Shown: positions 8,645 through 63,443 of the stretch, one piece after another
How the letters are laid out: the number at the start of each line of letters is the position of its first letter
Position numbering within the stretch: the first letter of the stretch is position 1
Source: Chloroflexota bacterium
GTDB lineage: Bacteria; Chloroflexota; UBA11872; VXNJ01
NCBI GenBank assembly: GCA_965261345.1
Contig: OZ253449.1
Span: 64,001 to 128,000, forward strand
Direction of reading: 5' to 3'
DNA length: 64,000 nt
Made by a program: the position numbers and the translations under genes
Notes under the pieces: generated by a model
The model's input: the letters and a program-made list of their open reading frames with translations, nothing else
What the model was told of the DNA's origin: nothing
The model's database searches: none

Positions 8645-8672
8645 ACTAGGTATATTCGCAATTATGTAAATC
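8645..8672 (+). other. dif-like site
   Basis: ACTAGGTATAT-TCGCAA-TTATGTAAATC. Confidence 0.7.
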
Positions 8673-36847: not shown

Positions 36848-37164
36848 TTGACGGCACCACTGTCCAGCAACGTCTCAACATCGTCCAGTCCCGGGATGCT
36901 ATGGCGCTCATGCAGCAATACCGCCGGCAGCTTCCCGGCATCGGCGATCAATGAGTCGTCGTCGAAGTCGACTTAAAGGCGCTTGGCGGCTAAGCGATGT
37001 TGACTTAACCAGTGCTCCCCAGCTCTGGGTCTTGTGGTTCTCGACCAACCGATTGCCCCAGTGATGAGAAAAACCTTTCTGCTTATTTGAAATCGTTCTG
37101 CTCAAAAAGATTTCGGTGGGTTGGCGTTGGATTGCAAACAATGATTATGTCTAGTATTCCCTGT
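36848..37164 (+). repeat. 317-bp direct repeat copy 1 (IS1380 left-end remnant plus dif-like site)
   Basis: Matches 41326-41642 (offset 4478); reverse strand resembles the IS1380 left end at 49728 (CACCGAAAT...FDDDSLIADAG). Confidence 0.85.
37128..37155 (+). other. dif-like site
   Basis: TGGATTGCAAA-CAATGA-TTATGTCTAGT. Confidence 0.7.
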
Positions 37165-37493
37165 CGTTCGCCACCGGCCCAACGCAAGCAGTTCATCCAC
37201 CGGATACCGGCTCATTCCCAGGTGATGTCATCCTGTCCGCCTCGTAGCTCGCCGCGCGGCATGCGCGCCGCAATTTCAGATCGACCAGAAGATTCCATTC
37301 ATCGCCATCGGTGCCGCCGGCAACTGCCCCGGACGCGAGTTGTCGGAAGCAATCGCCGACGACATCTCTATGTACAACTGCAAAGCAAGCGTCCGGTCGA
37401 CCGGCGCCGGACTACCGAAGATTTTTGCGGCAACAAAACTCGTGCAACTGCGCGGCGGATGCCGAATCAGATTTCCGCAACCGGTTGAGCCTG

Positions 37494-38827: not shown

Positions 38828-40903
38828 CTAGAAACCAGGCCGAAAAGCCCAAAACGCGCGTCGGGGCTCAAACAGATTAGCAATGACCTCGAAGACCTCC
38901 CTGAGGCCGCCAAACCGATTTAGGACACTCTGGATCGATATTTCGTGGGAATTCTGGGCCCATGCAACGATCGCGCCGGCGGCAACCGCATTTTTAAGAC
39001 CCCGCGCCAAATCCCGATTCGCAGGTCCTTCCATTACCGGCGCAGAAGCTACTTCCCGGCCTTCGGCGACCCCGTTCCGATTGCCCTCCATCGCCATCTG
39101 CGCCGCCTCCCGGCCGTTTGCGGCGGCCGCGGTCAGCCCGGCTTCCCGGCCCGGGTCGGTTCCCGAGGGTTTCCTTTTCCACGACTCCCCTTCGGCAAGC
39201 GTTAGGTTGGCCACCGTGGCCGCCATCAGCAGCTGGAACCCGGCAAGTTGCCTGCCAAAGAACCGCGACTGGCGCACGCCCAGCTGGCAGAGCCTGGCCA
39301 GGCGGTGCTCGACGCGGGTTCTAAGGCGCGCGATCTTTAAGCCTTCCTTACTGCGCTGGCGGATGCGGGCCTGCTGCAGCAGGCGTTCCTGGGGATGGAC
39401 GCTGATGCGGCGGTTGGGTTTGGTCGCAGAGCGTATGCAGGATGTCTTGAGTGGACAGGCCGAGCACTGCTCTTTAGCGAAGTGGAAGAGGCCGGCGCGT
39501 GTCTTGGCGCTGCGCCGGGAGCGCGAGCGGCGGTAATCGGAAGTTATCTGCCCGGCTGGGCAGGTGCAGGTTCCCTTTTCCAGATCGATGGCAAAGTCCT
39601 GCTTTACAAAGTAGCGGCTGGCTGGTTTACCCGGCGCCCTGGCGAAGAGGTCGTACCCGGCGTCGGCGAAGTCCTTGCGGGTGTCGCCAGCCCCGTAGGC
39701 GCAGTCGCCGATGACGATCTCGACTTTGGCGGCGGCGTTCTCTTCGGCCTCCCGCACCAGCGCCAGGGCGCCGCAGTTGTCGGGGGCGTTGCCCGGGATC
39801 ACGTCTACCGCGGTTACCAGGCCGGTTGACAAATCTACGGCGATGGCGGCCTTGTGGCCGGCAAAGCGGTTGGTCGAGCTCTTGCGTCCATGGCGCATCT
39901 GCGGATCGTGCGCCGATATGATCCGGTCGCGTCCGCCCCGGACGATCTCCACTTCCTCGCCATCTGCGCCGTCGGCCGAATCCCTGGCCGCGACACCCCT
40001 GTCTCTGACCGCCACCGGGGCGGGATCGACCTCGCCGGCGTCGGTTCCCGCCGGCAGCAGCAGCCGATCGCGGTCGTCGGGAACCGGTTTTGCCGGTTCC
40101 GCGGGGACGCGTTTTACGTCCTGGAGCAGGATCTGCGACAGCAGCTGCGAGCAGGCCAGGATCTTATCGGCGCGCTTATTGTCGGGAGCAGGGGATTCAA
40201 GCGCGCTGCGGGCCCTTGCCAGCAGCGAGTCGGCGTCTCTGACGATCCGCCCCAGGAACCGGCGGCGCTGTTTACGGTCCGGCCAGTCGATGGCGACAGC
40301 GCCCTTCAGGCTCTTGCCGGCATGCAGGTTGTAGCCGTGTTGGCGGGCCCACTCTTTGGGGTCTTGGCCATCCTGTTCGGCCAGGGCGCCGACCAGCAGG
40401 CGGCAGCCGTCCCCGATCAGGTTGTAGGCGTCCCGCACCGCGCCCCTGCCCAGGATGGCGGTGGTATCGATCGCCAGCTTCATGCTCTGGCCCTTGAAGA
40501 AGCCCTTTTTGCGGGCGTGCTGCAGGGAGCGGCGAAATATCCCCCGCGCCCTGCCGTGAACGATCAGCTGCGAGCGAAACAGCTGCAATGTGGACTTGGC
40601 GAACGCGCGTTCTTCCAGCTCGGTCCCCAGCGCCACCTTCCAGCGCAGGTCGTAGTCGGCCCGCTGCTTGGCCTCGTTGTCAGAGACCTTATCGTGGGCC
40701 TGCAGCAGGAGAACGGTGGCCAGCAGCGAGGGCGCCACGCTGGGGCGGCCGTTGTCGGCGCAGTAGAGATCGGCGAAATCTTCGTCTTTGAACAGCTCTC
40801 CCCGCATGCCCGCCAGGCGGCCGTAGAAGGTATCGCGTCCTACGTAGTCAAGGTGCAGGCCGTCGGTCTGGAAGAAGCCCTTTTGGGCATGGGTCCCCAG
40901 CAT
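38828..40903 (-). CDS. IS1182-family transposase
   Basis: LYC..NGRPSV.P..LA..LLLQ, AIDTT, GDCAYG, CTCPAG, CSACPLK..C, R.RVEH. Confidence 0.9.
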   Translation of the reverse strand: MLGTHAQKGFFQTDGLHLDYVGRDTFYGRLAGMRGELFKDEDFADLYCADNGRPSVAPSLLATVLLLQAHDKVSDNEAKQRADYDLRWKVALGTELEERAFAKSTLQLFRSQLIVHGRARGIFRRSLQHARKKGFFKGQSMKLAIDTTAILGRGAVRDAYNLIGDGCRLLVGALAEQDGQDPKEWARQHGYNLHAGKSLKGAVAIDWPDRKQRRRFLGRIVRDADSLLARARSALESPAPDNKRADKILACSQLLSQILLQDVKRVPAEPAKPVPDDRDRLLLPAGTDAGEVDPAPVAVRDRGVAARDSADGADGEEVEIVRGGRDRIISAHDPQMRHGRKSSTNRFAGHKAAIAVDLSTGLVTAVDVIPGNAPDNCGALALVREAEENAAAKVEIVIGDCAYGAGDTRKDFADAGYDLFARAPGKPASRYFVKQDFAIDLEKGTCTCPAGQITSDYRRSRSRRSAKTRAGLFHFAKEQCSACPLKTSCIRSATKPNRRISVHPQERLLQQARIRQRSKEGLKIARLRTRVEHRLARLCQLGVRQSRFFGRQLAGFQLLMAATVANLTLAEGESWKRKPSGTDPGREAGLTAAAANGREAAQMAMEGNRNGVAEGREVASAPVMEGPANRDLARGLKNAVAAGAIVAWAQNSHEISIQSVLNRFGGLREVFEVIANLFEPRRAFWAFRPGF

Positions 40904-41024
40904 GTCTCCACCACCCGGCAATGCTATGTTTTTATCAATGGAAAGGCTCCGCAAGATGCCTGTTGATATTTTATATGTTTGATGACGGATTAGCCCTTTG
41001 TACAGGGGCTTTTCGGCCGGGCTT
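38832..41024 (-). mobile_element. IS1182-family element
   Basis: IRs AAACCAGGCCGAAAAGCCC / AAGCCCGGCCGAAAAGCCC flanked by CTAG on both sides. Confidence 0.85.
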
Positions 41025-41325: not shown

Positions 41326-41642
41326 TTGACGGCACCACTGTCCAGCAACGTCTCAACATCGTCCAGTCCCGGGATGCTATGGCGCTCATGCAGCAATACC
41401 GCCGGCAGCTTCCCGGCATCGGCGATCAATGAGTCGTCGTCGAAGTCGACTTAAAGGCGCTTGGCGGCTAAGCGATGTTGACTTAACCAGTGCTCCCCAG
41501 CTCTGGGTCTTGTGGTTCTCGACCAACCGATTGCCCCAGTGATGAGAAAAACCTTTCTGCTTATTTGAAATCGTTCTGCTCAAAAAGATTTCGGTGGGTT
41601 GGCGTTGGATTGCAAACAATGATTATGTCTAGTATTCCCTGT
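41326..41642 (+). repeat. 317-bp direct repeat copy 2
   Basis: Matches 36848-37164. Confidence 0.85.
41606..41633 (+). other. dif-like site
   Basis: TGGATTGCAAA-CAATGA-TTATGTCTAGT. Confidence 0.7.
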
Positions 41643-41668
41643 TGAACACAAACTCAATTACGTCAACT
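41641..41668 (+). other. dif-like site, tandem with the previous one
   Basis: GTTGAACACAA-ACTCAA-TTACGTCAACT. Confidence 0.6.
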
Positions 41669-46170: not shown

Positions 46171-48092
46171 GAACAGCCAGGCAAACTGGAGTATGGACGC
46201 GGGTGAAAGTCCCGCTGGCAAAGGGCTGGCCGCCCATGCCGAACCGCGAGCCGTGCGCAGGCCGTCGCGAGACGGTCGGTGAAGCGTCGGTAGCGGGGCA
46301 TGCGGGCCGGGCTATCGAGCGCCGAAATACCGGTTCGGAGCGCCGAGACCGTGATTCTGGTCGAAGGCAACACCGACAGCGGCGATATTGGCAAGTCGCT
46401 GATCTGGGCTCCGCGGCGTCGAAGAACTCGCGCACGTATGCACGTCCATCCCCGGGACCTGGGAGACCTGTCCAGCGCCCCAACGCACTCGCAGCATTGG
46501 GGCCGCATCGGGAAGGAAGGAGTTTCGCAATCCGATGATGCACGCCGGACAGAAGTCTGATGCGGCCATAGTACCTGCGAAGGCGGCGAACAATGGGGCG
46601 TAAAACCCCGGCGGAGCCGCCGGAGGAAAGGGCCGCAAGCAAGAGGAACGCGCCAGGCACCGGCACGGACTACACCCAGGGGTGGGTTCCCGTGTCACCC
46701 GGAGCCGAACGCGTACGGCAACACGCCAAAGAGAACCCAGAGGGAAAACTCACCGCGCTCTTACACCACATAGACCTTGACGCGCTAAGGGATGCGTTCT
46801 ACGGGCTAAAACCCAATGCCGCTCCCGGCGCCGACGGGATCACGTGGAGGATGTACGAGGAAAACCTGGAAGAGAAACTTCTCGACCTTAAAGACCGCGT
46901 GCACAAAGGAGCATACCGAGCGACCCCCGTCCTGCGGGTAGCGATACCCAAACCGGACGGCGGGAAGCGAGCGCTTGGAATCGCATCCATAGAGGACAAG
47001 ATCCTGCAGCGGGCGGTGTGTCAACAGATCCTTGACCCGATCTATGAATCGGAGTTCGCCGGGTTCGCATACGGGTTCCGGCCAAAAAGATCAGCGCACG
47101 ACGCGCTGGACGCCCTGGCCTACGCCATCGAACGGAGAAAAGTCAACTGGATTCTTGACGCCGACATAAAAGGCTTCTTCGACCATCTCGACCGCGAGCG
47201 ACTCATCTCGTTCCTGGGAGAGCGAATCGGAGACAACCGCGTCCTGCGCCTAATCCGCAAATGGCTGAGCACCGGAGTAATGGAAGCCGGAGAACTATCC
47301 GACAGCGTGCAGGGAACACCGCAAGGGGCGCCGATATCGCCGCTGCTTGCCAACGTGTACCTGCACAAAGTCCTGGACTCATGGTTTGCCAAGGAATGGC
47401 GACCCAAAAGGGCCAGCGGCGAGGTCTACATCGTCAGGTATGCCGATGACTTCGTCCTGGGATTTGAGTACCGCAGCGATGCGGTCAGATTTGCAAAGGA
47501 TTTGCGAGACAGGCTAGAAGAGTACGGATTAGAGCTTGCAGCCCACAAGACCCGCCTGATCGAGTTCGGCAGATACGCGATCGAGAATCGCCGCCAGCGT
47601 AACGACAGCCGTCCGGAGACTTTTGACTTCCTCGGCCTAACGCATTACTGCCGGACGATGAGCAACGGAAAGTTCGGACTGGGACGCAAGCCCATCGCCA
47701 AGCGCGTCAGACGCACCCTGAAGGCGATCAAGGAACGACTACGCATGCGCATGCACGACGATCCCGCGCAGACCGGGCAATGGCTCGGGTTGGTGCTGCG
47801 GGGCTGGCTCGGCTATTACGCCGTCCCAACCAGCTCCACGTACCTGAGGAGTTTCAAATATGAACTCGAGCGCCAGTGGTTACGCAGCCTGCGCCGCCGG
47901 TCGCAGCATGATCGATTCCCATGGGGGCGCCTGCGCGCATTGAGCACTGCCCATCTCCCAACCGTCTCCATCCTCCACCCATGGCCCGCCGACCGTTTTG
48001 CCGTCAAACACTCAAGCTAAGAGCCCGGTGCGTTAACGCGCATGCCGGGATCCGTGCGGGGGGCACCGGGTAACCGGTGTTCCTACCGCGAA
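46171..48092 (+). mobile_element. Group II intron 1 (class E-like, RT without endonuclease)
   Basis: D5 GAGCCCGGTGCGTTAACGCGCATGCCGGGATC; D6 ending CCTACCGCGAA; EBS1 GATTCT (46353-46358) pairs with upstream AGAGTC. Confidence 0.92.
46593..48020 (+). CDS. ltrA: Group II intron reverse transcriptase/maturase
   Basis: IPKPDG..R.LGI, YGFRP, DIKGFFD, GTPQG..ISPLLAN, RYADDF, FDFLG. Confidence 0.95.
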   Translation: MGRKTPAEPPEERAASKRNAPGTGTDYTQGWVPVSPGAERVRQHAKENPEGKLTALLHHIDLDALRDAFYGLKPNAAPGADGITWRMYEENLEEKLLDLKDRVHKGAYRATPVLRVAIPKPDGGKRALGIASIEDKILQRAVCQQILDPIYESEFAGFAYGFRPKRSAHDALDALAYAIERRKVNWILDADIKGFFDHLDRERLISFLGERIGDNRVLRLIRKWLSTGVMEAGELSDSVQGTPQGAPISPLLANVYLHKVLDSWFAKEWRPKRASGEVYIVRYADDFVLGFEYRSDAVRFAKDLRDRLEEYGLELAAHKTRLIEFGRYAIENRRQRNDSRPETFDFLGLTHYCRTMSNGKFGLGRKPIAKRVRRTLKAIKERLRMRMHDDPAQTGQWLGLVLRGWLGYYAVPTSSTYLRSFKYELERQWLRSLRRRSQHDRFPWGRLRALSTAHLPTVSILHPWPADRFAVKHSS

Positions 48093-49728: not shown

Positions 49729-51657
49729 TTCGCGGTAGGAACACCGGTTACCCGGTGCCCCCCGCACGGATCCCGGCGTGCGCGTTAACGCACCGGGCTC
49801 TTAGCTTGAGTGTTTGACGGCAAAACGGTCGGCGGGCCATGGGTGGAGGATGGAGACGGTTGGGAGATGGGCAGTGCTCAATGCGCGCAGGCGCCCCCAT
49901 GGGAATCGATCATGCTGCGACCGGCGGCGCAGGCTGCGTAACCACTGGCGCTCGAGTTCATATTTGAAACTCCTCAGGTACGTGGAGCTGGTTGGGACGG
50001 CGTAATAGTTGAGCCAGCCCCGCAGCACCATCCCGAGCCATTGCCCGGTCTGCATCGGATCATCGTGCATGCGCATACGCAGCTTCTCTTTGATCGCCTT
50101 CAGGGTGCGTCTGACGCGCTTGGCGATGGGCTTGCGTCCCAGTCCGAACTTTCCGTTGCTCATCGTCCGGCAGTAATGCGTTAGGCCGAGGAAGTCAAAA
50201 GTCTCCGGCCGTCTTTCGCCTCGTTGGCGGCGGTTGTGCGCCGCTTGCCGGCCGAACTCGATCAGGCGGGTCTTGTGGGCTGCAAGCTCTAATCCGTACT
50301 CTTCTAGCCTGTCTCGCAAATCCTTTGCAAATCTGACCGCATCGCTGCGGTACTCAAATCCCAGGACGAAGTCATCGGCATACCTGACGATGTAGACCTC
50401 GCCGCTGGCCCTTTTGGGTCGCCATTCCTTGGCAAACCATGAGTCCAGGACTTTGTGCAGGTACACGTTGGCAAGCAGCGGCGATATCGGCGCCCCTTGC
50501 GGTGTTCCCTGCACGCTGTCGGATAGTTCTCCGGCTTCCATTACTCCGGTGCTCAGCCATTTGCGGATTAGGCGCAGGACGCGGTTGTCTCCGATTCGCT
50601 CTCCCAGGAACGAGATGAGTCGCTCGCGGTCGAGATGGTCGAAGAAGCCTTTTATGTCGGCGTCAAGAATCCAGTTGACTTTTCTCCGTTCGATGGCGTA
50701 GGCCAGGGCGTCCAGCGCGTCGTGCGCTGATCTTTTTGGCCGGAACCCGTATGCGAACCCGGCGAACTCCGATTCATAGATCGGGTCAAGGATCTGTTGA
50801 CACACCGCCCGCTGCAGGATCTTGTCCTCTATGGATGCGATTCCAAGCGCTCGCTTCCCGCCGTCCGGTTTGGGTATCGCTACCCGCAGGACGGGGGTCG
50901 CTCGGTATGCTCCTTTGTGCACGCGGTCTTTAAGGTCGAGAAGTTTCTCTTCCAGGTTTTCCTCGTACATCCTCCACGTGATCCCGTCGGCGCCGGGAGC
51001 GGCATTGGGTTTTAGCCCGTAGAACGCATCCCTTAGCGCGTCAAGGTCTATGTGGTGTAAGAGCGCGGTGAGTTTTCCCTCTGGGTTCTCTTTGGCGTGT
51101 TGCCGTACGCGTTCGGCTCCGGGTGACACGGGAACCCACCCCTGGGTGTAGTCCGTGCCGGTGCCTGGCGCGTTCCTCTTGCTTGCGGCCCTTTCCTCCG
51201 GCGGCTCCGCCGGGGTTTTACGCCCCATTGTTCGCCGCCTTCGCAGGTACTATGGCCGCATCAGACCCCTGTCCGGCGTGCATCATCGGCTACGGATACC
51301 TCCTTCCCGATGCGACCCCGGATCTGCGAGTGAACCGGGGTAATGCGCAGATCTCCCAGTTCCCGGCCCGGGACTTACGTACGTACATGAGTTCTTTGAC
51401 ACCGTCGAGCCCGGCTGACGGCTGGCCATCTATTGCCGCCGCCGGTGTTGCCTTCGACAAGATCAAGAGTCTCGGCGCTCGGGACAAACCCGATGTTTCG
51501 GTGCTCCATAGCTCTGTCCGCACGCTCCGCTGCCGACGCTTCACGGGTAACCTCGCGGTTACCCGCGCACGGCTCGCGGGCTGATGTGGGCTGGCTCTCG
51601 CCCTTCATCCCGGGAGACTTTCACTCCTTGTCCTGGTACCAGTTGGACTGGCTGTTC
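49729..51657 (-). mobile_element. Group II intron 2
   Basis: Near-identical D5/D6 to intron 1; EBS1 TGATCT (51460-51465, minus strand) pairs with upstream AGGTCA. Confidence 0.92.
49801..51228 (-). CDS. ltrA: Group II intron reverse transcriptase/maturase
   Basis: 475 aa, near-identical to 46593-48020 except a short divergent patch. Confidence 0.95.
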   Translation of the reverse strand: MGRKTPAEPPEERAASKRNAPGTGTDYTQGWVPVSPGAERVRQHAKENPEGKLTALLHHIDLDALRDAFYGLKPNAAPGADGITWRMYEENLEEKLLDLKDRVHKGAYRATPVLRVAIPKPDGGKRALGIASIEDKILQRAVCQQILDPIYESEFAGFAYGFRPKRSAHDALDALAYAIERRKVNWILDADIKGFFDHLDRERLISFLGERIGDNRVLRLIRKWLSTGVMEAGELSDSVQGTPQGAPISPLLANVYLHKVLDSWFAKEWRPKRASGEVYIVRYADDFVLGFEYRSDAVRFAKDLRDRLEEYGLELAAHKTRLIEFGRQAAHNRRQRGERRPETFDFLGLTHYCRTMSNGKFGLGRKPIAKRVRRTLKAIKEKLRMRMHDDPMQTGQWLGMVLRGWLNYYAVPTSSTYLRSFKYELERQWLRSLRRRSQHDRFPWGRLRALSTAHLPTVSILHPWPADRFAVKHSS

Positions 51658-57793: not shown

Positions 57794-58128
57794 AGTGATC
57801 ATCGCTCGGCTTTAGCCACGGGTCAATCTGCTGGGTGCGAGCGTGCGGCACCTATGGATGGCATTGAGCCGCTGTCCGCCTGTCGGACGAGCGATTGTTT
57901 TTACTTGGTGAGATATTGTTTCCGCATCACCACACGACTTGCTCCCGACGGTGGGGCCACGATATTTGGTGTGCGCAATCCGGTCGGAAGTTTTTCGACA
58001 ACATCATATCGTGCATCAACGGATCTAAGCCTGCTTTGTTTGGATCGCAAATCTGATACCCTCGATAACCCGGCAATCAATGACGCACGGCGTGAGATTC
58101 ATATCCACCAATTAACTGAAGAATTCAA

Positions 58129-58374
58129 ATGTCGGAGGACAGCAACCGTCACGTGGTCACTAATCCTGAAGGTGGGTGGGATGTCGTCAAGCCGAACGCG
58201 GATCGGTCGTCAGCTTATCTGCAAACGCAAGCTGATGCGGTTGAGCTCACGCGCGAAATCGTAGAGAACTTTGGCGGGGGCGAAGTCGTGATTCACCGCC
58301 GCGATGGCCGGATCCGGGATTCCGATACAGTTCCGCCCGGGAACGACCCTAACCCGCCACGCGACTCTCGTTAA
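58129..58374 (+). CDS. DUF2188 family protein
   Basis: RHVV....GGW.V.....R.S....TQ.DA...EVVIH..DGRIRDSDT. Confidence 0.85.
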   Translation: MSEDSNRHVVTNPEGGWDVVKPNADRSSAYLQTQADAVELTREIVENFGGGEVVIHRRDGRIRDSDTVPPGNDPNPPRDSR

Positions 58375-58635
58375 TCGGTCGCCAATTAGAAGTGCCGAGT
58401 GACTAACCTAGCGGCTGAGATTCGGTAGTGACATTGGTCTGCCGACTCTCGGCGAATCTGTCAGAGTGATGGGCCAGTTCGAACTGGAGCAATCCTATTG
58501 GCTGGTTTCCTTGCAGGCGGTGGCATTCGTGCGTGAACGGATCGTTTCTGCGCCGGCCCTTTCGCCGAATTGAATCAATTGTGGTTGAGGTGAACCGATT
58601 CAACGGCAAGTCGCGATTCGAGCCGAGAGATCCAC

Positions 58636-59553
58636 TTGGGACAACATAAAAACCCACAAGAGTATTGGCGGCATTTCGGGAGTCCACCCGGCAAACGCAT
58701 GATCTGGCAATTTGACACGAAAATTCTGAAATATTCCAATCGCCCAATTCCAATCAAGAATGTCGCGCAAGCACGCAATTACTATTCGCCAGTTGACGAA
58801 AAAATGCTGGCTGAATTGATTGAAGCTCCTGCCCACGGGCCACTAAACAAGCTCCGCAACCGAGAGGACCTTAACCCCGACGATCGCTCGAGCGTTGCGT
58901 GGTACATAAACGCGATGGTTCGGCGGGGGCCGCGCGCCCGAAATCATTTGCTGGAAGTATTACCAACCGAATTCAGCGCCTATCGTAAACGACTAATTGC
59001 AAATCTCGACCAGATGATTGAGCGGTACGGACATACCAGTGCCGAATGGATCAACGCACTTGATCAATTGAGTGAACGCATCCTTCGCGGCGACGTTTCT
59101 GACAAGGACGACTTAATCAGGTCGCAGTATTTGGTGGGAAAAGTCGCACTTGCCGTCTTTCATATGCAATGGGTGATAGTCCATTCGAATCGAACTGGTG
59201 AGTTCATAACCAATGACAACCCGGTGTTTTTTACTGAAGGGATCGGCTTGGGGCACCCACAAGCAGAATTGACTCTTCCGCTGTCGCCGCGCACGGCGTT
59301 GCATGCGTCGTGGCGAGGACGGGAATTCGGGCTCGAACATGCATCAGCGACTCAAAATCAACTGGTGAAAGAGATTAATCGACGGACGGTATATGTTGCG
59401 GATCGCATGTTGTACTCACGCGGTAAGCACGATTGGTTAGCGGCAATCGCCGCAAAAAAGCCAAATGTCTTGCTGAAGCCCCTGTACTTTGGACATCCTG
59501 GATTCCAACCAGTTGAAATCCCGGACGAGGACCAATATGCTAGCGTGATTTGA
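58636..59553 (+). CDS. DUF4238 family protein
   Basis: H..PQ.Y.R.F N-terminus; FITNDNPV...LPLSPR motif. Confidence 0.75.
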   Translation: MGQHKNPQEYWRHFGSPPGKRMIWQFDTKILKYSNRPIPIKNVAQARNYYSPVDEKMLAELIEAPAHGPLNKLRNREDLNPDDRSSVAWYINAMVRRGPRARNHLLEVLPTEFSAYRKRLIANLDQMIERYGHTSAEWINALDQLSERILRGDVSDKDDLIRSQYLVGKVALAVFHMQWVIVHSNRTGEFITNDNPVFFTEGIGLGHPQAELTLPLSPRTALHASWRGREFGLEHASATQNQLVKEINRRTVYVADRMLYSRGKHDWLAAIAAKKPNVLLKPLYFGHPGFQPVEIPDEDQYASVI

Positions 59554-59650
59554 GCTCAAATCCGAACGGCGCAGCCTAGTGCAACGAAGTGAAATGCCGC
59601 AACGAACCGCGTCATCTGAACTTTCGATTGGTCCTCAGCAGACAGCGTCC

Positions 59651-59672
59651 GTTTTTCATAATCGCAATTATG
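59651..59672 (+). other. dif-like site split by intron 3 (remainder at 61597-61602)
   Basis: GTTTTTCATAA-TCGCAA-TTATG|intron|TCTTGC. Confidence 0.8.
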
Positions 59673-61596
59673 GAACAGCCAGGCTAACTGGCATGGGACA
59701 GGGGTGCAAGTCCCCCGTGCTGTAAAGAAGGGAGCCATTCTGCAGCACTCTGCGAGTCATGCGCTGATCGCCGCGAGGCGGTTGGTGAAGCGTTGACAGC
59801 AGCGCGTGTGGGCGGGGCGATCGAGCGCCGCAACCTTTACATTCCGGAGCGCCGAGGCTTTCATATTGGTCGAAGGCAACACCTGCTGCGACGACAAATG
59901 GCCAGTCGCAGTTTGGGCTCCGCGGCGTCAAAGAACCCAGGCACGCACGTACGTCTCCTGCCGGGACCTGGGAGATCTGCCAGGTGCCCCGCCATCTCGC
60001 ACGACGGGGCCGCATCGGGGAGGGAGGCAACCGTAGCTGATGATGCACGCCGGGCAGAAGTCTGACGCGGCCGTAGTAGCTGTGAAGTCGGCGAACAAGG
60101 GAGAGCGATCTCCGGCGGAGTCGATAGAGCCAAGGGCCGCGACCAAGAGAAATCCGCAACGCCCGGCACGGGCCGAACCCAGAGTCGGGTAACCGTGTCA
60201 CTCGGAGCCGAGCGGATACGGCAATACGTTAAGGCAAATCCCGGAGGAAAACTCACCGCGCTCCTGCACCACTTAACCCCCGAAACGCTCTTTGCGGCCT
60301 ACTTTGCGCTCAAGCCGAACGCGGCCCCCGGCGCCGACGGGATAACGTGGCAGATGTACGGGGAAGGACTGACAGATAACCTGTCCGGCCTTCACCAACG
60401 CTTGCACAAAGGAGCGTACCGGGCGGCCCCCGTCCTAAGGGTGGAAATACCCAAACCGGACGGCGGAGTGCGAAAGCTCGGAATCGCATCCCTGGAAGAC
60501 AAAATCCTCCAGCGGGCGGTGACAGACAACCTCCTGAACCCGATCTACGAATCGGAGTTCGCGGGATTTAGCTACGGGTTCAGGCCCAATCGCTCAGCCC
60601 ACGATGCGCTGGACGCGCTCGCCTACGTAATAGGGCAACGCCGGGTCAACTGGGTAGCTGAGGTGGACATCAAGGGGTTCTTCGACAATATCGATCGGGA
60701 ACAGCTAATGGCGTTCCTGCAAGATCGCATCGCAGACCGCAGAGTCCTGCGCCTCATCCGAAAGTGGCTCGCCGCCGGTGTCCTTGACAACGGACTAAAG
60801 GTCGACCCCGCACGGGGCACACCGCAGGGAGCGCCGATATCGCCGCTGCTTGCCAACGTGTACCTGCTTGGGTGGGCTCGACCAATGGTTCGCGCGACAG
60901 TGGCGGCCGCAGAAAGCCATCGGCCAGGCCTACATGGTCAGATACGCCGATGACTTCGTACTGGGATTTGAGCACCGCCAAGATGCGGAGAGGTTCCTTA
61001 GGGACCTAGAGGAGCGGTTCACGAAATACGGACTGGAGTTGCACCCCGAGAAGACGCGCCTGATCGAGTTCGGCAAAAACGCGGCGCGTAACCACCGCCG
61101 GAGAGGCGAGCGACGACCGGAGACCTTTGACTTCCTCGGTCTGACGCACTACTGCCGAACGACTCGAACCGGACGCTTCGGACTGGGACGCAAGCCATCG
61201 TCCAAACGCGTTCGCCGCACCCTGAATGCGTTAAAGAACGCGCTGCGCTGGCGCATGCACGACGATCCGGTGGAAACCGGTCAATGGCTCGGAAGAGTAC
61301 TTCGTGGCTGGCTCGGCTACTACGCCGTCCCCACAAGCTACAAATCCCTGGACCAGTTCAAGCGCGCCCTGCAGTGGCTTTGGCTCCGCACTCTGCGCCG
61401 CCAGTCGCAAACCGCAAACTTTGCGTGGGAGCGGCTAGAAGCGATGTGTGAACAGCTTTGGCCCCGCATCCGCATCATCCACCCATGGCCCGCCACACGC
61501 TTTGCCGTCACCCACTCAAGGTAAGAGCCGGATGCGCTAACGCGCACGTCCGGATCCGTGCGGGGGGAGATCGGTAACGATCTTCCCTACCGCGAA
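59673..61596 (+). mobile_element. Group II intron 3
   Basis: Starts GAACAGCCAGG; D5 GAGCCGGATGCGCTAACGCGCACGTCCGGATC; ends CCTACCGCGAA. Confidence 0.92.
60195..61524 (+). pseudogene. ltrA: Intron RT/maturase, frameshifted near 60870
   Basis: RT motifs up to ISPLLANVYL in one frame; RYADDF and domain X in another. Confidence 0.88.
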
Positions 61597-61687
61597 TCTT
61601 GCTCCATTAATCGCGTAGCGCAGATTTGGCCAGCTTGCGTCCCGGGTTCGAGAGCAATCGCTCCGGTGAATCAATTCGCGATCGGAA

Positions 61688-62026
61688 TCAAACCTTTTCG
61701 ACAATCGCAACCGACCTAACTTCAAGTTGCACGCCCTCGTGTTCTTGGATTTGGTTAATCACTTCGAACAGGTTTTTGGCATGCGGGTTGCCATTCGATC
61801 CGAACATGCGCATTAGGCTCTTGGGCGATTTATGCGTGCGAGCGCCCAGTTCCTCAAACCCTATAGTGGCGTTTATGTAATCGCGCAGTAGGACTTTCCC
61901 TGCGTCGATTTCTCCGCCCAGCAAACATTGGACGCCCTCGTTCAATAACCCTTCCCGAAACAAGGGATCGACTATTGCCCGGGCTTGCACCGTTTCCTTG
62001 AATTCACGCGTAAGAGCCACTCTCAT
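61688..62026 (-). CDS. Addiction-module antidote (HTH DNA-binding)
   Basis: ALTREFKETVQAR...LLRDYINATIGFE.L...KSLMRM....GNP...NLF. Confidence 0.85.
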   Translation of the reverse strand: MRVALTREFKETVQARAIVDPLFREGLLNEGVQCLLGGEIDAGKVLLRDYINATIGFEELGARTHKSPKSLMRMFGSNGNPHAKNLFEVINQIQEHEGVQLEVRSVAIVEKV

Positions 62027-62349
62027 TCCCTCCGATTTCGATTCCTGAAATCCTGCCAATTCGCTTTGGCCGTCGCAATGTCTGATTGCTGGCGCGCCTT
62101 AGTGCCTCCGCCGAGCAAAATGACCACCGTTTTCCCTTCACGACCGAAATAAATCCTGTAGCCAGGACCAGTATGGATGCGGAATTCCGTTACTCCGCCG
62201 CCAACTCCCTTCGTATTTGAGAGGTTGCCAGTGGCCATTCTGGTTAATCCGGTTGTGATCTTTATTGCTGCCTGGGAATCCAGCCCTGCGAACCATCGGC
62301 CGAATGGACTCCGACCCGTATCGTCCAAGTATTCGCGAAGCTCAGACAT
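62023..62349 (-). CDS. RelE/ParE-family addiction-module toxin
   Basis: G.SPF..WF..L...GN....K.VG.GV.E.RI..GPGYRIYFG...LLGGG.K..Q..DI. Confidence 0.9.
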   Translation of the reverse strand: MSELREYLDDTGRSPFGRWFAGLDSQAAIKITTGLTRMATGNLSNTKGVGGGVTEFRIHTGPGYRIYFGREGKTVVILLGGGTKARQQSDIATAKANWQDFRNRNRRE

Positions 62350-62355
62350 CGATAG

Positions 62356-62377
62356 ATGGTAACATATCCGTTACCAT
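62356..62377. promoter_or_regulatory. Putative TA operator palindrome
   Basis: ATGGTAAC-ATATCC-GTTACCAT just upstream of the toxin start. Confidence 0.6.
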
Positions 62378-62447
62378 GCTGAGTGAAATAGATCAGCGCA
62401 CCTTGAACTGCGAAGGAAGTTGGCTACAAGCCATTTGAGCGCCGCTG

Positions 62448-62475
62448 GTTCGACCTAATCGCCATTATGTCTTGT
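62448..62475 (+). other. dif-like site
   Basis: GTTCGACCTAA-TCGCCA-TTATGTCTTGT. Confidence 0.85.
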
Positions 62476-62585
62476 AACTTAACGCCGTCATCTCCGCTTG
62501 TTGATTGATGAATGATTCCATTTGCTCTCGAGCATGGGACGGTGACTGCGAATAAACTGCGGACTTGTGATCAGACGAGCTTTCG

Positions 62586-63443
62586 TCAACTCTCGTCGTT
62601 GAACCGTTCGTCTTCGTCTTCGCTGTCGGACGAAGAGTTCGCCAATCGCGCAAACAACGACGAGAGGTATTCAAAAGTGCCCGATACAGAGCTATTTGAC
62701 GGCAATCCAGTTAGCGCTTGGCCCAGTTCGTTTAGAGCTACAAAGAGAGTGAAATCTGCCGCGACCAGCGGATGTTCATCTATTCCATCCCTGGACGCAT
62801 CTCCTAGCCCCATTTGCTCGCGAACCTCTGCCAATTCCGCCTTGGCCACTAGGATCAATAGCGCTGCATTGGCGGTCTTGCCCATAAGATGGTCCGGCAC
62901 TAATGGTCCCGGCTCTGTCCCCGGGTATCCGCCGTTGCGCTCAAGAATTGACCGAACTCGGTGATGAACTTCATCGAATGACGTGAAAGACCCACCGTAA
63001 TCGACTATCAAATGTTCGTCGCGACCGTTGATGACGTGAATCCGACCGTGAATCATAATTTCGACATCGGATCTGTCGGAATCGCGCGCCAAATTGCGAA
63101 CAAATCTCGCAAGAACCGCAAAAAGCTCGCCCAATATGCCATGGTCAACAACCAGCAGCGCAGGTAATTGCAATTCATCCGACTTGAGAACGGCCTCAGC
63201 ATACTTGTCGTCGGGAATCAAAGCAGCTACAACCGAGCCACGCGGAAGACTGTCTTTAATACTTCGCAACAATTCACTTGTGTATTGCGGGAAGAGTTCC
63301 AATAGTTCATCGCCGAGTTCAGCGCGGCTTGGGATGGCGATCACTTTTGCGACCTTGGCGTCCCGGGCATTGGCATGGTCAACAGGTAGAGTGGCGATCA
63401 ATTCCTCTAATGACATTCGTGCTTTCCCGACCGAAATATTCAT
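62586..63443 (-). CDS. Hypothetical protein
   Basis: 285-aa acidic ORF with no recognised motif. Confidence 0.55.
   Translation of the reverse strand: MNISVGKARMSLEELIATLPVDHANARDAKVAKVIAIPSRAELGDELLELFPQYTSELLRSIKDSLPRGSVVAALIPDDKYAEAVLKSDELQLPALLVVDHGILGELFAVLARFVRNLARDSDRSDVEIMIHGRIHVINGRDEHLIVDYGGSFTSFDEVHHRVRSILERNGGYPGTEPGPLVPDHLMGKTANAALLILVAKAELAEVREQMGLGDASRDGIDEHPLVAADFTLFVALNELGQALTGLPSNSSVSGTFEYLSSLFARLANSSSDSEDEDERFNDES

What the first reader, a model, noticed from the sequence alone, without database searches (positions are those of the whole stretch)
59651..61602. Group II intron inserted precisely within the conserved arm of a dif-like site
Seen: removing 59673-61596 restores GTTTTTCATAA-TCGCAA-TTATGTCTTGC, matching intact arms TTATGTCTTGT (767, 62465). 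The putative EBS1 loop CATATT (59862-59867) pairs 5 of 6 with the 5' exon ATTATG, the most invariant part of the array motif. Known: IIC-attC introns target integron attC sites. Inference: this may be an analogous intron exploiting Xer cassette sites, and its insertion would inactivate the site.
Basis: partly seen in the sequence, partly recalled or inferred. Interest (0 to 1): 0.8.

Follow-up and report, generated by a model that had tools for sequence, protein, structure and literature searches.

The report
Group II intron splitting dif-like site
A mobile self-splicing intron sits exactly inside one arm of a chromosome-resolution-like (dif-like) recombination site, and a related remnant in a sister species sits at the matching spot, hinting at a lineage that homes to such sites.

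Summary
Window 59673-61596 is a 1,924-nt group II intron (Rfam D1-D4 154 bits, D5/D6 40.1 bits). It lies between TTATG and TCTTGC of a CATAA-N6-TTATG dif-like core. Empty sites of sibling introns fix the family's ends as GAACAG...GAA.

New evidence for targeting:
- A same-genus genome (G055) carries a 165-nt remnant whose best match is this intron. It sits at the symmetry-equivalent position of another dif-like site, in the opposite arm.
- In two other studies' runs, 99%-identical intron contigs stop matching the window 6 nt before and 2 nt after the intron.

Evidence against:
- There is no EBS2-IBS2 pairing.
- The RT ORF carries a +1 frameshift, also present in other samples.
- G000 has one copy, although at least 12 other dif-like sites in the array are unoccupied.
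- No further case was found in 98 class genomes, 401 phylum genomes or JGI metagenomes.

The intron is not IIC-like: siblings home by EBS1 plus EBS2, and the sites form no consistent hairpin. Targeting of dif-like cores is likely (about 0.6) but rests on two genomic cases. Site inactivation is untested.

The parts
59651..59661 (+). Left (degenerate) arm of the dif-like site, GTTTTTCATAA
   Evidence: Sequence. The CATAA-N6-TTATG core was found by pattern search. Aligned with 12 other array sites.
59662..59667 (+). Central 6-nt region TCGCAA. Its last A is IBS1 position -6.
   Evidence: the spacer consensus TCGCAA is kept in 12, 11, 12, 13, 6 and 13 of 13 sites.
59668..59672 (+). First five bases (TTATG) of the conserved arm, forming IBS1 positions -5 to -1
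   Evidence: Pairs with EBS1.
59673..61596 (+). Group II intron (called intC here), 1,924 nt, ends GAACAG...CGCGAA
59707..59937 (+). Ribozyme domain I part matched by Rfam RF02005 (group-II-D1D4-6)
   Evidence: 154.1 bits, E 8.4e-46
59832..59844 (+). Internal loop AACCTTTACATTC at the place where siblings carry EBS2. It has no complement of 5 bp or more in exon positions -22 to -7.
59862..59867 (+). EBS1, CATATT
   Evidence: the same loop gives 6 of 6 pairs in sibling groups g2, g3 and g4 (some are G-U). This copy pairs 5 of 6, with a mismatch at -5.
60195..60866 (+). RT ORF, first part (RVT_1 profile positions 1-134)
60867..60876 (+). Zone of the +1 frameshift in the RT ORF, between ANVYL and LDQWF
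   Evidence: A contig from run X5 covers 60824-61598 with 0 gaps, so the length is the same in another study.
60877..61524 (+). RT ORF, second part (YADD, thumb/X region). No endonuclease domain found.
61523..61596 (+). Domains V and VI
   Evidence: RF00029, 40.1 bits. The model's last position falls on 61597, which the siblings' empty sites show to be exon.
61597..61602 (+). Outer six bases (TCTTGC) of the split conserved arm
   Evidence: 10 of 11 identical to the arm at 62465-62475 once joined to TTATG.
58636..59553 (+). Upstream cargo gene (DUF4238), same strand as the intron
   Evidence: PF14022, 93.8 bits
61688..62349 (-). Downstream cargo: Gp49/HigB-like ORF (22 bits, under the Pfam cut-off of 23.9) and an overlapping 123-aa partner ORF with no Pfam match
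62454..62475 (+). Next intact dif-like site, CCTAA-TCGCCA-TTATGTCTTGT

Best explanation
An endonuclease-less, ORF-carrying group II intron reverse-spliced into the top strand of a dif-like (Xer-type) site. The site is one of an array of same-oriented sites near a GC-skew switch.

The intron belongs to a small lineage, seen so far only in this genus, that prefers the core of such sites. EBS1 (CATATT) pairs with the last spacer base plus the first five arm bases: A-TTATG here and A-ATACG in G055. The cut falls between arm positions 5 and 6.

Because the core is a dyad, either arm on either strand can be hit. Here the conserved arm is split; in G055 the degenerate arm is split. cDNA priming would come from the replication fork, as for other En-less introns.

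The present copy has a frameshifted RT, so it would need a sibling's protein to splice or move.

Shown: the insertion, its exact ends, EBS1 pairing, a second case, and lineage specificity.
Inferred: active targeting, what besides EBS1 gives the specificity, fork priming, and loss of Xer function at the split site.
For: 1. Precise insertion in the core.
2. EBS1 was located by covariation: 6 of 6 pairs in three sibling groups and 5 of 6 here.
3. An order-wide BLAST with domain I, run before any flank was looked at (57 genomes), returned a 165-nt remnant in G055. Its best match is this intron: 76.6% over 154 nt, 106 bits, against 72.5 bits for the next. It follows CTCGACATAATTGCAAATACG, the same distance into a CATAA-N6 core. 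Read on the other strand, that site has the array's conserved arm TTATGTCGAGCG intact, so the intron lies in the other arm there. This favours an independent event. IBS1 there is AATACG, also 5 of 6, and the two sites mismatch EBS1 at different positions.
4. None of the 8 other full-length copies or the one 5' fragment in G000, and none of 8 sibling 5' junctions in G051, G055, G056 and G016, follows such a core.
5. In G000 only 41 of 10,635 positions within one mismatch of AATATG have ATAA at -15 to -12, which is 0.39%.
6. In runs X5 and X7 (two other studies), contigs about 99% identical to the intron stop matching the window at 59667, six bases before the intron. In X5 they also stop at 61598, two bases after it. 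The upstream cassette has no cover in these runs, and the downstream one is only about 93% alike.
7. The target looks Xer-type. It has an 11-6-11 dyad. The genome has only two tyrosine recombinase genes, with best hits XerD (210 bits) and XerC (143 bits). The array lies at a cumulative-skew switch. A 1.8-kb duplicate ends exactly at the site.
8. The IEP has RVT_1 only. The review PMC4424553 (passages read) says En-minus introns are primed at replication forks.
Against: - No EBS2-IBS2 complement of 5 bp or more exists at the place where siblings have 5-6 bp.
- EBS1 is imperfect at both sites, and its perfect complement AATATG sits unoccupied in a dif-like core at genome 75918 on the minus strand.
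- There is only one copy in G000, although at least 12 other array sites are empty.
- The RT is frameshifted, and the same length is seen in another study's contig.
- No further junction was found in 98 class genomes (2 of 98, namely G000 and G055), in 401 sampled phylum genomes (2 of 401, the same two), or in JGI metagenome contigs (1 hit, a chance match without an intron).
- The core plus arm flanks of the two cases differ at 7 of 21 positions (counted by eye). That is not far from the 23% divergence of the intron pieces, so one ancient insertion cannot be excluded.
- In G055 the homologue of the downstream cassette (91% identity) has no dif-like core before it.
- Xer binding or recombination at any of these sites is unproven, and both recombinases score under NCBIfam's cut-offs.
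Confidence: 0.6

Rival explanations
1. Near-cognate (ectopic) insertion without any preference for dif-like sites. The lineage's real homing site is elsewhere, of the form AATATG preceded by a complement of the CCUUUAC loop. The G000 and G055 cases are either one ancient event inherited by both species or two accidents kept because cassette borders tolerate insertions.
For: - No EBS2 pairing with the site.
- One mismatch in EBS1-IBS1 at each site.
- The copy is single and its RT is broken.
- No other case in 98 class genomes, 401 phylum genomes or JGI metagenomes.
- The divergence of the two cores (7 of 21, by eye) is compatible with common descent.
Against: - The same offset in the core occurs in both cases, in opposite arms relative to the array's conserved arm.
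- The chance per event is 0.39% even given an EBS1 match.
- The intron is 99% alike in other samples where the window's upstream cassette is absent, yet the match breaks exactly at -7 and +3.
- No repeated alternative target showed up in G000.
Confidence: 0.3
2. The intron was not inserted by reverse splicing into a site. It travelled as part of a cassette moved by Xer recombination, or the half-sites are a chance resemblance.
For: Cassette-like mosaic around the site: a 1.8-kb duplicate ends at TTATG.
Against: - A cassette moved by site-specific recombination would be flanked by two whole sites. Here there is one site, split into 16 + 6 (+6) bases.
- Sibling introns show clean insertion with empty sites.
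- The CATAA-N6-TTATG core is far above chance in the window: 6 matches against 0.63 expected.
Confidence: 0.04

Closest known systems
Class C (IIC)-attC group II introns, e.g. S.ma.I2
   Same: A group II intron lying inside the recombination site of a tyrosine-recombinase cassette array. En-less IEP. TA-type cargo nearby.
   Different: IIC introns recognise a DNA stem-loop plus a short IBS1/IBS3. This comes from PMC4424553 (passages read). The primary papers were seen only in its reference list. In this case siblings use EBS1 plus EBS2 homing, the sites give no consistent hairpin, and the target is dif-like, not attC. No integron integrase is present: the only two tyrosine recombinases are both Xer-like.
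Group IIB introns in integrons and CALINs of halophiles (Sonbol & Siam 2021, PMC7923331; abstract read)
   Same: Non-IIC introns (CL1, class E) associated with cassette arrays rich in TA systems. Several are truncated, like the G055 remnant.
   Different: Those lie in attC arrays. Here the array is of dif-like sites and the insertion point is the same base of the site core in both cases.
En-less homing introns that target insertion sequences (RmInt1 type; recalled, plus listing PMC4615759)
   Same: The 8 sibling copies in this genome do exactly this. They home into an IS3-like orfA, an IS110-like transposase gene and a repeated TTGACAAAT-N-GTAGAGAGTC motif, using EBS1 and EBS2.
   Different: This copy's target is a recombination site, and EBS2 pairing is missing.
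IS1202-family insertion sequences that target pdif/dif sites (PMC10132070; search listing and start of abstract only)
   Same: A mobile element with a fixed position relative to Xer sites.
   Different: These are DNA transposons that insert 5 bp outside the XerC arm. Here a retroelement inserts inside an arm.
IMEX elements and dif modules (recalled; listings PMC12907356, PMC7399989)
   Same: The surrounding array looks like accumulated Xer-dependent modules: same-oriented sites, one conserved arm, a conserved central region, and a position near a skew switch.
   Different: No Xer activity has been shown here. This bears on the target, not on the intron.

Membership tests
Bacterial ORF-containing group II intron | Domain I-IV ribozyme structure | tested here: met
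   RF02005, 154.1 bits against a cut-off of 49
Bacterial ORF-containing group II intron | Domains V and VI with a bulged branch A | tested here: met
   RF00029, 40.1 bits against a cut-off of 40, so only just over
Bacterial ORF-containing group II intron | Intact RT/maturase ORF in domain IV | tested here: not met
   RVT_1 is present on both halves, but there is a +1 frameshift at 60867-60876, with the same length in run X5. Sibling intA is intact: TIGR04416, 344 bits against a cut-off of 300.
Bacterial ORF-containing group II intron | 5' GUGYG and 3' AY ends | tested here: not met
   The ends are GAACAG and GAA in all 9 copies, fixed by empty sites. Relatives elsewhere start GAGCG or GTGCG. 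This is a variant, not an exclusion.
Bacterial ORF-containing group II intron | EBS1-IBS1 pairing at the 5' junction | tested here: met
   5 of 6 pairs. The loop was located by covariation in siblings.
Bacterial ORF-containing group II intron | EBS2-IBS2 pairing (IIA/IIB-type homing) | tested here: not met
   No complement of 5 bp or more exists between exon positions -22 to -7 and the loop, whereas siblings have 5-6 bp
Bacterial ORF-containing group II intron | Splicing to ligated exons | not testable with these tools
   No RNA holder was listed, so nothing was laid as RNA
IIC-attC introns | Target is a DNA stem-loop (attC bottom strand or terminator) | tested here: not met
   11 intact array sites folded as DNA gave 0 to -4.8 kcal/mol with differing structures
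IIC-attC introns | Class C ribozyme and IEP | tested here: inconclusive
   No phylogeny was made. Siblings home by EBS1 plus EBS2 into 20-35-bp-type sites, the mode the review ascribes to all lineages but class C.
dif / Xer recombination site (the target) | Two inverted 11-bp arms around a 6-bp centre | tested here: met
   The left arm is degenerate and the right arm is conserved.
dif / Xer recombination site (the target) | XerC/XerD recombinases encoded | tested here: inconclusive
   There are two Phage_integrase genes only. Best hits are XerD (210 bits) and XerC (143 bits), both under the equivalog cut-offs of about 330.
dif / Xer recombination site (the target) | Position at the replication terminus | tested here: inconclusive
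   Cumulative GC skew has its minimum at 1.18 Mb and its maximum around 2.36 Mb to about 0.2 Mb, if the contig is circular (assumed). The array spans 61-218 kb. The skew amplitude is small.
dif / Xer recombination site (the target) | Recombination at the site | not testable with these tools
   Indirect only: a 99.9% identical duplicate of 1,828 bp ends at TTATG(TC)

The most novel reading that the evidence does not exclude
A lineage of endonuclease-less group II introns has specialised on the dyad core of Xer/dif-like sites in terminus-proximal cassette arrays. This would be a fourth kind of bacterial group II target, besides homing sites, terminators and attC. Recognition would go beyond EBS1 and would not use EBS2. 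By splitting an arm, the intron would freeze the neighbouring cassettes against Xer-mediated exchange.
Probability: 0.4. Interest if true: 0.75.

Novelty: new variant of a known kind. Interest (0 to 1): 0.58.

Why it matters
The review read here (PMC4424553) lists three target specificities for bacterial group II introns: homing sites, terminator motifs and attC sites. My searches found no paper linking a group II intron to a dif or Xer site.

If the preference is real, it would show that a second kind of tyrosine-recombinase cassette system attracts retroelements. It would also give a natural example of target choice that EBS1 alone cannot explain. And it would offer a handle on whether these arrays of dif-like sites are active, since an occupied site should be dead for Xer.

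If the preference is not real, this is an ordinary ectopic insertion of a decaying intron in an IS- and intron-rich region.

Tried and rejected
- No RNA holder was listed for the stretch, so nothing can be said on expression or splicing.
- In the four runs laid, no joint 59672/61597 (intron-free allele of this very junction) was listed. Contigs drop rare variants, so this says little.
- In X1 no contig covers about 60852-61044. This hole is not evidence.
- X11 record 11 lies on 61597-61939 only from its 12th letter, so its first 11 letters are not the intron's end. The letters were not shown, and I cannot say whether it is an empty site.
- A joint 59693 to 61562 (X5, X7; side 28) could be a mini derivative or an artefact.
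- A scan of G000 for AATATG preceded by a complement of the EBS2-like loop gave only scattered single sites and no repeated alternative target.
- The metagenome pattern scan gave one hit, which lies in a coding-looking stretch without any intron.
- The closest RT relatives in genome contigs are at most 72% identical. In the 16 of the best 27 loci where I could recognise a 5' end by eye, none followed a CATAA-N6 core. The other 11 were truncated or unclear and were left out.
- The G055 homologue of the downstream cassette has no dif-like core in front of it, so it gave no empty site.
- I considered an integron (attC) reading of the array and rejected it. There are no R''/R' type motifs (recalled definition) and no integron integrase.
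- A hairpin-guided IIC-like mechanism was rejected.
- I did not make an IEP phylogeny, so the intron's class (D, E, F or other) is not assigned.
- Supplementary files of papers were not opened. None bears on a claim made here.
Full report
**What is there**

The stretch 59673-61596 is a group II intron.
- Rfam's D1-D4 model RF02005 matches 59707-59937 at 154.1 bits (cut-off 49).
- The D5/D6 model RF00029 matches 61523-61597 at 40.1 bits (cut-off 40).
- Between them lies a reverse-transcriptase ORF in two frames. Against the intact RT of a sibling it aligns at 68% and 65% identity on either side of a +1 frameshift at 60867-60876, between ANVYL and LDQWF.
- Pfam finds only RVT_1, with no endonuclease domain.
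- The window holds two more introns of the same family: 46171-48092 on the plus strand and 49729-51657 on the minus strand.

**Boundaries**

The whole genome is one contig of 2.39 Mb at 61.7% GC, and the window is bases 64001-128000. It has 9 full-length copies and 2 fragments. The other 8 copies are 72.3-74.1% identical to this one and align over all of positions 1-1924.

For three sibling groups the genome also holds unoccupied paralogous targets. Comparing occupied and empty sites fixes the ends as GAACAG...CGCGAA to the base. The ends are not the textbook GUGYG...AY. Relatives in other phyla start GAGCG or GTGCG, so this is a clade-specific variant.

For the copy in question, removing 59673-61596 joins CATAA-TCGCAA-TTATG to TCTTGC. 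An empty allele with both flanks was not found. However, a 1,828-bp segment ending at TTATG (window 57845-59672) is duplicated at genome 189140-190967 at 99.9% identity. There the site runs on intact as TTATGTCGATTAG.

**The target**

The core recurs on the plus strand. CATAANNNNNNTTATG with up to 1 mismatch gives 6 matches against 0.63 expected, and 0 of 100 shuffles reached 6.

Genome-wide, 13 same-oriented sites lie between 61 and 218 kb.
- Their consensus is CATAA-TCGCAA-TTATGTCGAGC.
- The last spacer base and TTATGT are kept in 12-13 of 13 sites. These sites were collected with a motif that contained ATTATGT, so that figure is partly built in.
- The left arm is degenerate.
- Fully palindromic dif-like sites lie at genome 1562, 2340337, 2355782 and 2374856.

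The genome has only two Phage_integrase genes. Their best NCBIfam hits are XerD (210 bits) and XerC (143 bits), both under the equivalog cut-offs.

Cumulative GC skew has its minimum at 1.18 Mb. It rises to the contig end and, if the contig is circular (assumed), on to about 0.2 Mb, so the array lies at one skew switch.

Cargo between the sites includes DUF4238, GmrSD, a UvrD-type helicase, HNH, RNase_T with a superinfection-immunity domain, a Gp49/HigB-like ORF and several transposases.

'dif-like' is therefore a fair description. Xer activity at these sites is not shown.

**Exon recognition**

- In Rfam's structure it is the hairpin loop before GAAGGCAAC.
- In the sibling groups it is complementary to the last six exon bases: GTAAGC with GCTTAC, TGATCT with AGATCA, and GATTCT with AGAGTC (with one G-U).
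- Here CATATT meets ATTATG, giving 5 of 6 pairs with a mismatch at -5.

Siblings also pair an internal loop at intron positions about 161-173 with exon positions -14 to -8: CAAGAA with TTCTTG, TCGGGT with GCCCGA, and GTTCGG with CCGAAC. This copy's loop AACCTTTACATTC has no complement of 5 bp or more anywhere in -22 to -7.

Siblings home into an IS3-like orfA (sense), an IS110-like transposase gene (antisense) and a repeated TTGACAAAT-N-GTAGAGAGTC motif.

**Is the lineage tied to dif-like sites?**

A BLAST of domain I against all 57 genomes of the order found matches in 5, counting G000, and none was closer than 78%. One match, in the same-genus genome G055, is a 165-nt 5' remnant.
- Its best match among all introns collected is this copy: 76.6% over 154 nt, 106 bits, with the next at 72.5 bits.
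- It follows CTCGACATAATTGCAAATACG, again right after the sixteenth base of a CATAA-N6 core.
- On the opposite strand that site reads CGTAT-TTGCAA-TTATGTCGAGCG. There the array's conserved arm is whole and the intron lies in the other arm, in reverse orientation to the array.
- Two further same-oriented dif-like sites lie 14 kb and 7 kb away.
- Its IBS1, AATACG, also pairs 5 of 6 with CATATT, with the mismatch at -2 rather than -5.

None of the 8 sibling copies or the 5' fragment in G000, and none of 8 sibling junctions in G051, G055, G056 and G016, follows such a core.

In G000, 10,635 positions lie within one mismatch of AATATG, and 41 of them (0.39%) have ATAA at -15 to -12. Two independent hits would therefore be very unlikely by chance.

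Independence is favoured by the opposite arm and orientation, but it is not proven. The 21 bases before the two introns differ at 7 positions (by eye), close to the divergence of the intron pieces.

**Public runs (contigs only)**

- X1, probably the source sample, covers 58600-60851 and 61045-62600 without a difference.
- In X5 and X7, from two other studies, contigs with 11-12 differences in 1,186 bases match from 59667 onward. That is six bases before the intron.
- An X5 contig matches up to 61598, two bases after the intron, with no gap across the frameshift zone.
- In those runs the upstream cassette has no cover. The downstream one is about 7% different and is not joined to the intron in the same way.

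This fits the same intron sitting in one or more other contexts that share ATTATG in front and TC behind. That is what other array sites would give, because they differ at -7. It is not proof, because the flanking letters were not shown.

**Negative searches**

- CATAANNNNNNWTAYGGN{3,4}GCCAGNCNANCTGG matched 2 of 98 genomes of the class (G000 and G055), with reversed-pattern controls at 0.
- A looser form matched the same 2 of 401 sampled genomes of the phylum.
- The JGI metagenome scan gave one match without any intron.
- Relatives from genome contigs are at most 72% identical in RT, and those I could read are in unrelated targets.

**Comparison with what is known**

The review PMC4424553 (passages read) names three bacterial target specificities: homing sites, terminator motifs and attC sites. 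It says class C introns alone use the last two, and that En-minus introns are primed at replication forks. PMC7923331 (abstract read) adds IIB introns (CL1, class E) in integrons and CALINs.

Full-text searches for group II intron together with dif site/XerC, with attC/dif/Xer, and with 'dif-like' found no paper on an intron in a dif or Xer site. The closest was IS1202-family elements that target pdif/dif (PMC10132070; listing and start of abstract only).

The intron here works like an ordinary EBS-guided, En-less homing intron, not like IIC-attC. The sites give no consistent single-strand hairpin: 0 to -4.8 kcal/mol with different folds in 11 sites.

If skew is read in the usual way, the plus strand at 123 kb is the lagging-strand template, the strand favoured by En-less introns (recalled). 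This is a weak inference from a small skew.

**Verdict**

- The intron-in-a-dif-like-arm reading is right.
- The idea that a lineage exploits such sites gained a second genomic case and supporting run data. It still rests on one genus, lacks EBS2 pairing, and concerns a copy with a broken RT.
- Loss of Xer function at the split site is plausible but untested.

Noticed in passing
window 8652-62475 (sites at 8652, 11919, 17163, 26871, 32972, 42975, 59658, 62455), continuing to genome 218 kb: An array of at least 13 same-oriented dif-like sites, CATAA-TCGCNA-TTATGTCGAKY. The sites separate defence, TA and IS cargo and lie at a GC-skew switch. The genome has only two tyrosine recombinase genes, both Xer-like. 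It looks like accumulated Xer-dependent modules.
   Followed up: partly
window 57845-59672 and genome 189140-190967: A 1,828-bp duplicate at 99.9% identity, including the DUF4238 gene. Its right end is the TTATG of the dif-like site. Its left end has no such motif.
   Followed up: partly
window 46171-48092 (+) and 49729-51657 (-): Two sibling introns form an inverted pair with near-identical central parts. An empty site at genome 25055 combines the 5' flank of one with a 3' flank like the other's, suggesting an inversion by recombination between the introns.
   Followed up: partly
all 9 intron copies of the genome, e.g. window 59673 and 61596: Non-canonical intron ends, GAACAG/GAACGG at the 5' end and GAA at the 3' end, fixed by empty sites. 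The first 3'-exon base is a pyrimidine in 9 of 9 copies.
   Followed up: partly
genome copies at 137800 (-) and 1585797 (+): Domain I of these copies is a mosaic of segments typical of two other sibling groups. The EBS1 and EBS2 loops are swapped accordingly, which indicates gene conversion among introns.
   Followed up: no
L084/L091 (G055:C1, about 806.4-809.9 kb): One intron is inserted inside the RT ORF of another, after TTTGACTTCCTCGGCCTAA. This is a twintron.
   Followed up: no
window 59693/61562 and 59700: Contigs of runs X5 and X7 show a joint that skips 59694-61561 (side 28). This could be an ORF-less mini derivative or an artefact. X5, X7 and X11 have one extra G after 59700.
   Followed up: no
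window 37115-37180 and 41590-41660: The sequence GGTGGGTTGGCGTTGGATTGCAAACAATGATTATGTCTAGTATTCCCTGT occurs twice, flanking a DDE transposase gene (38828-40954). It is probably an IS end that happens to contain an arm-like TTATGTCTAG.
   Followed up: no
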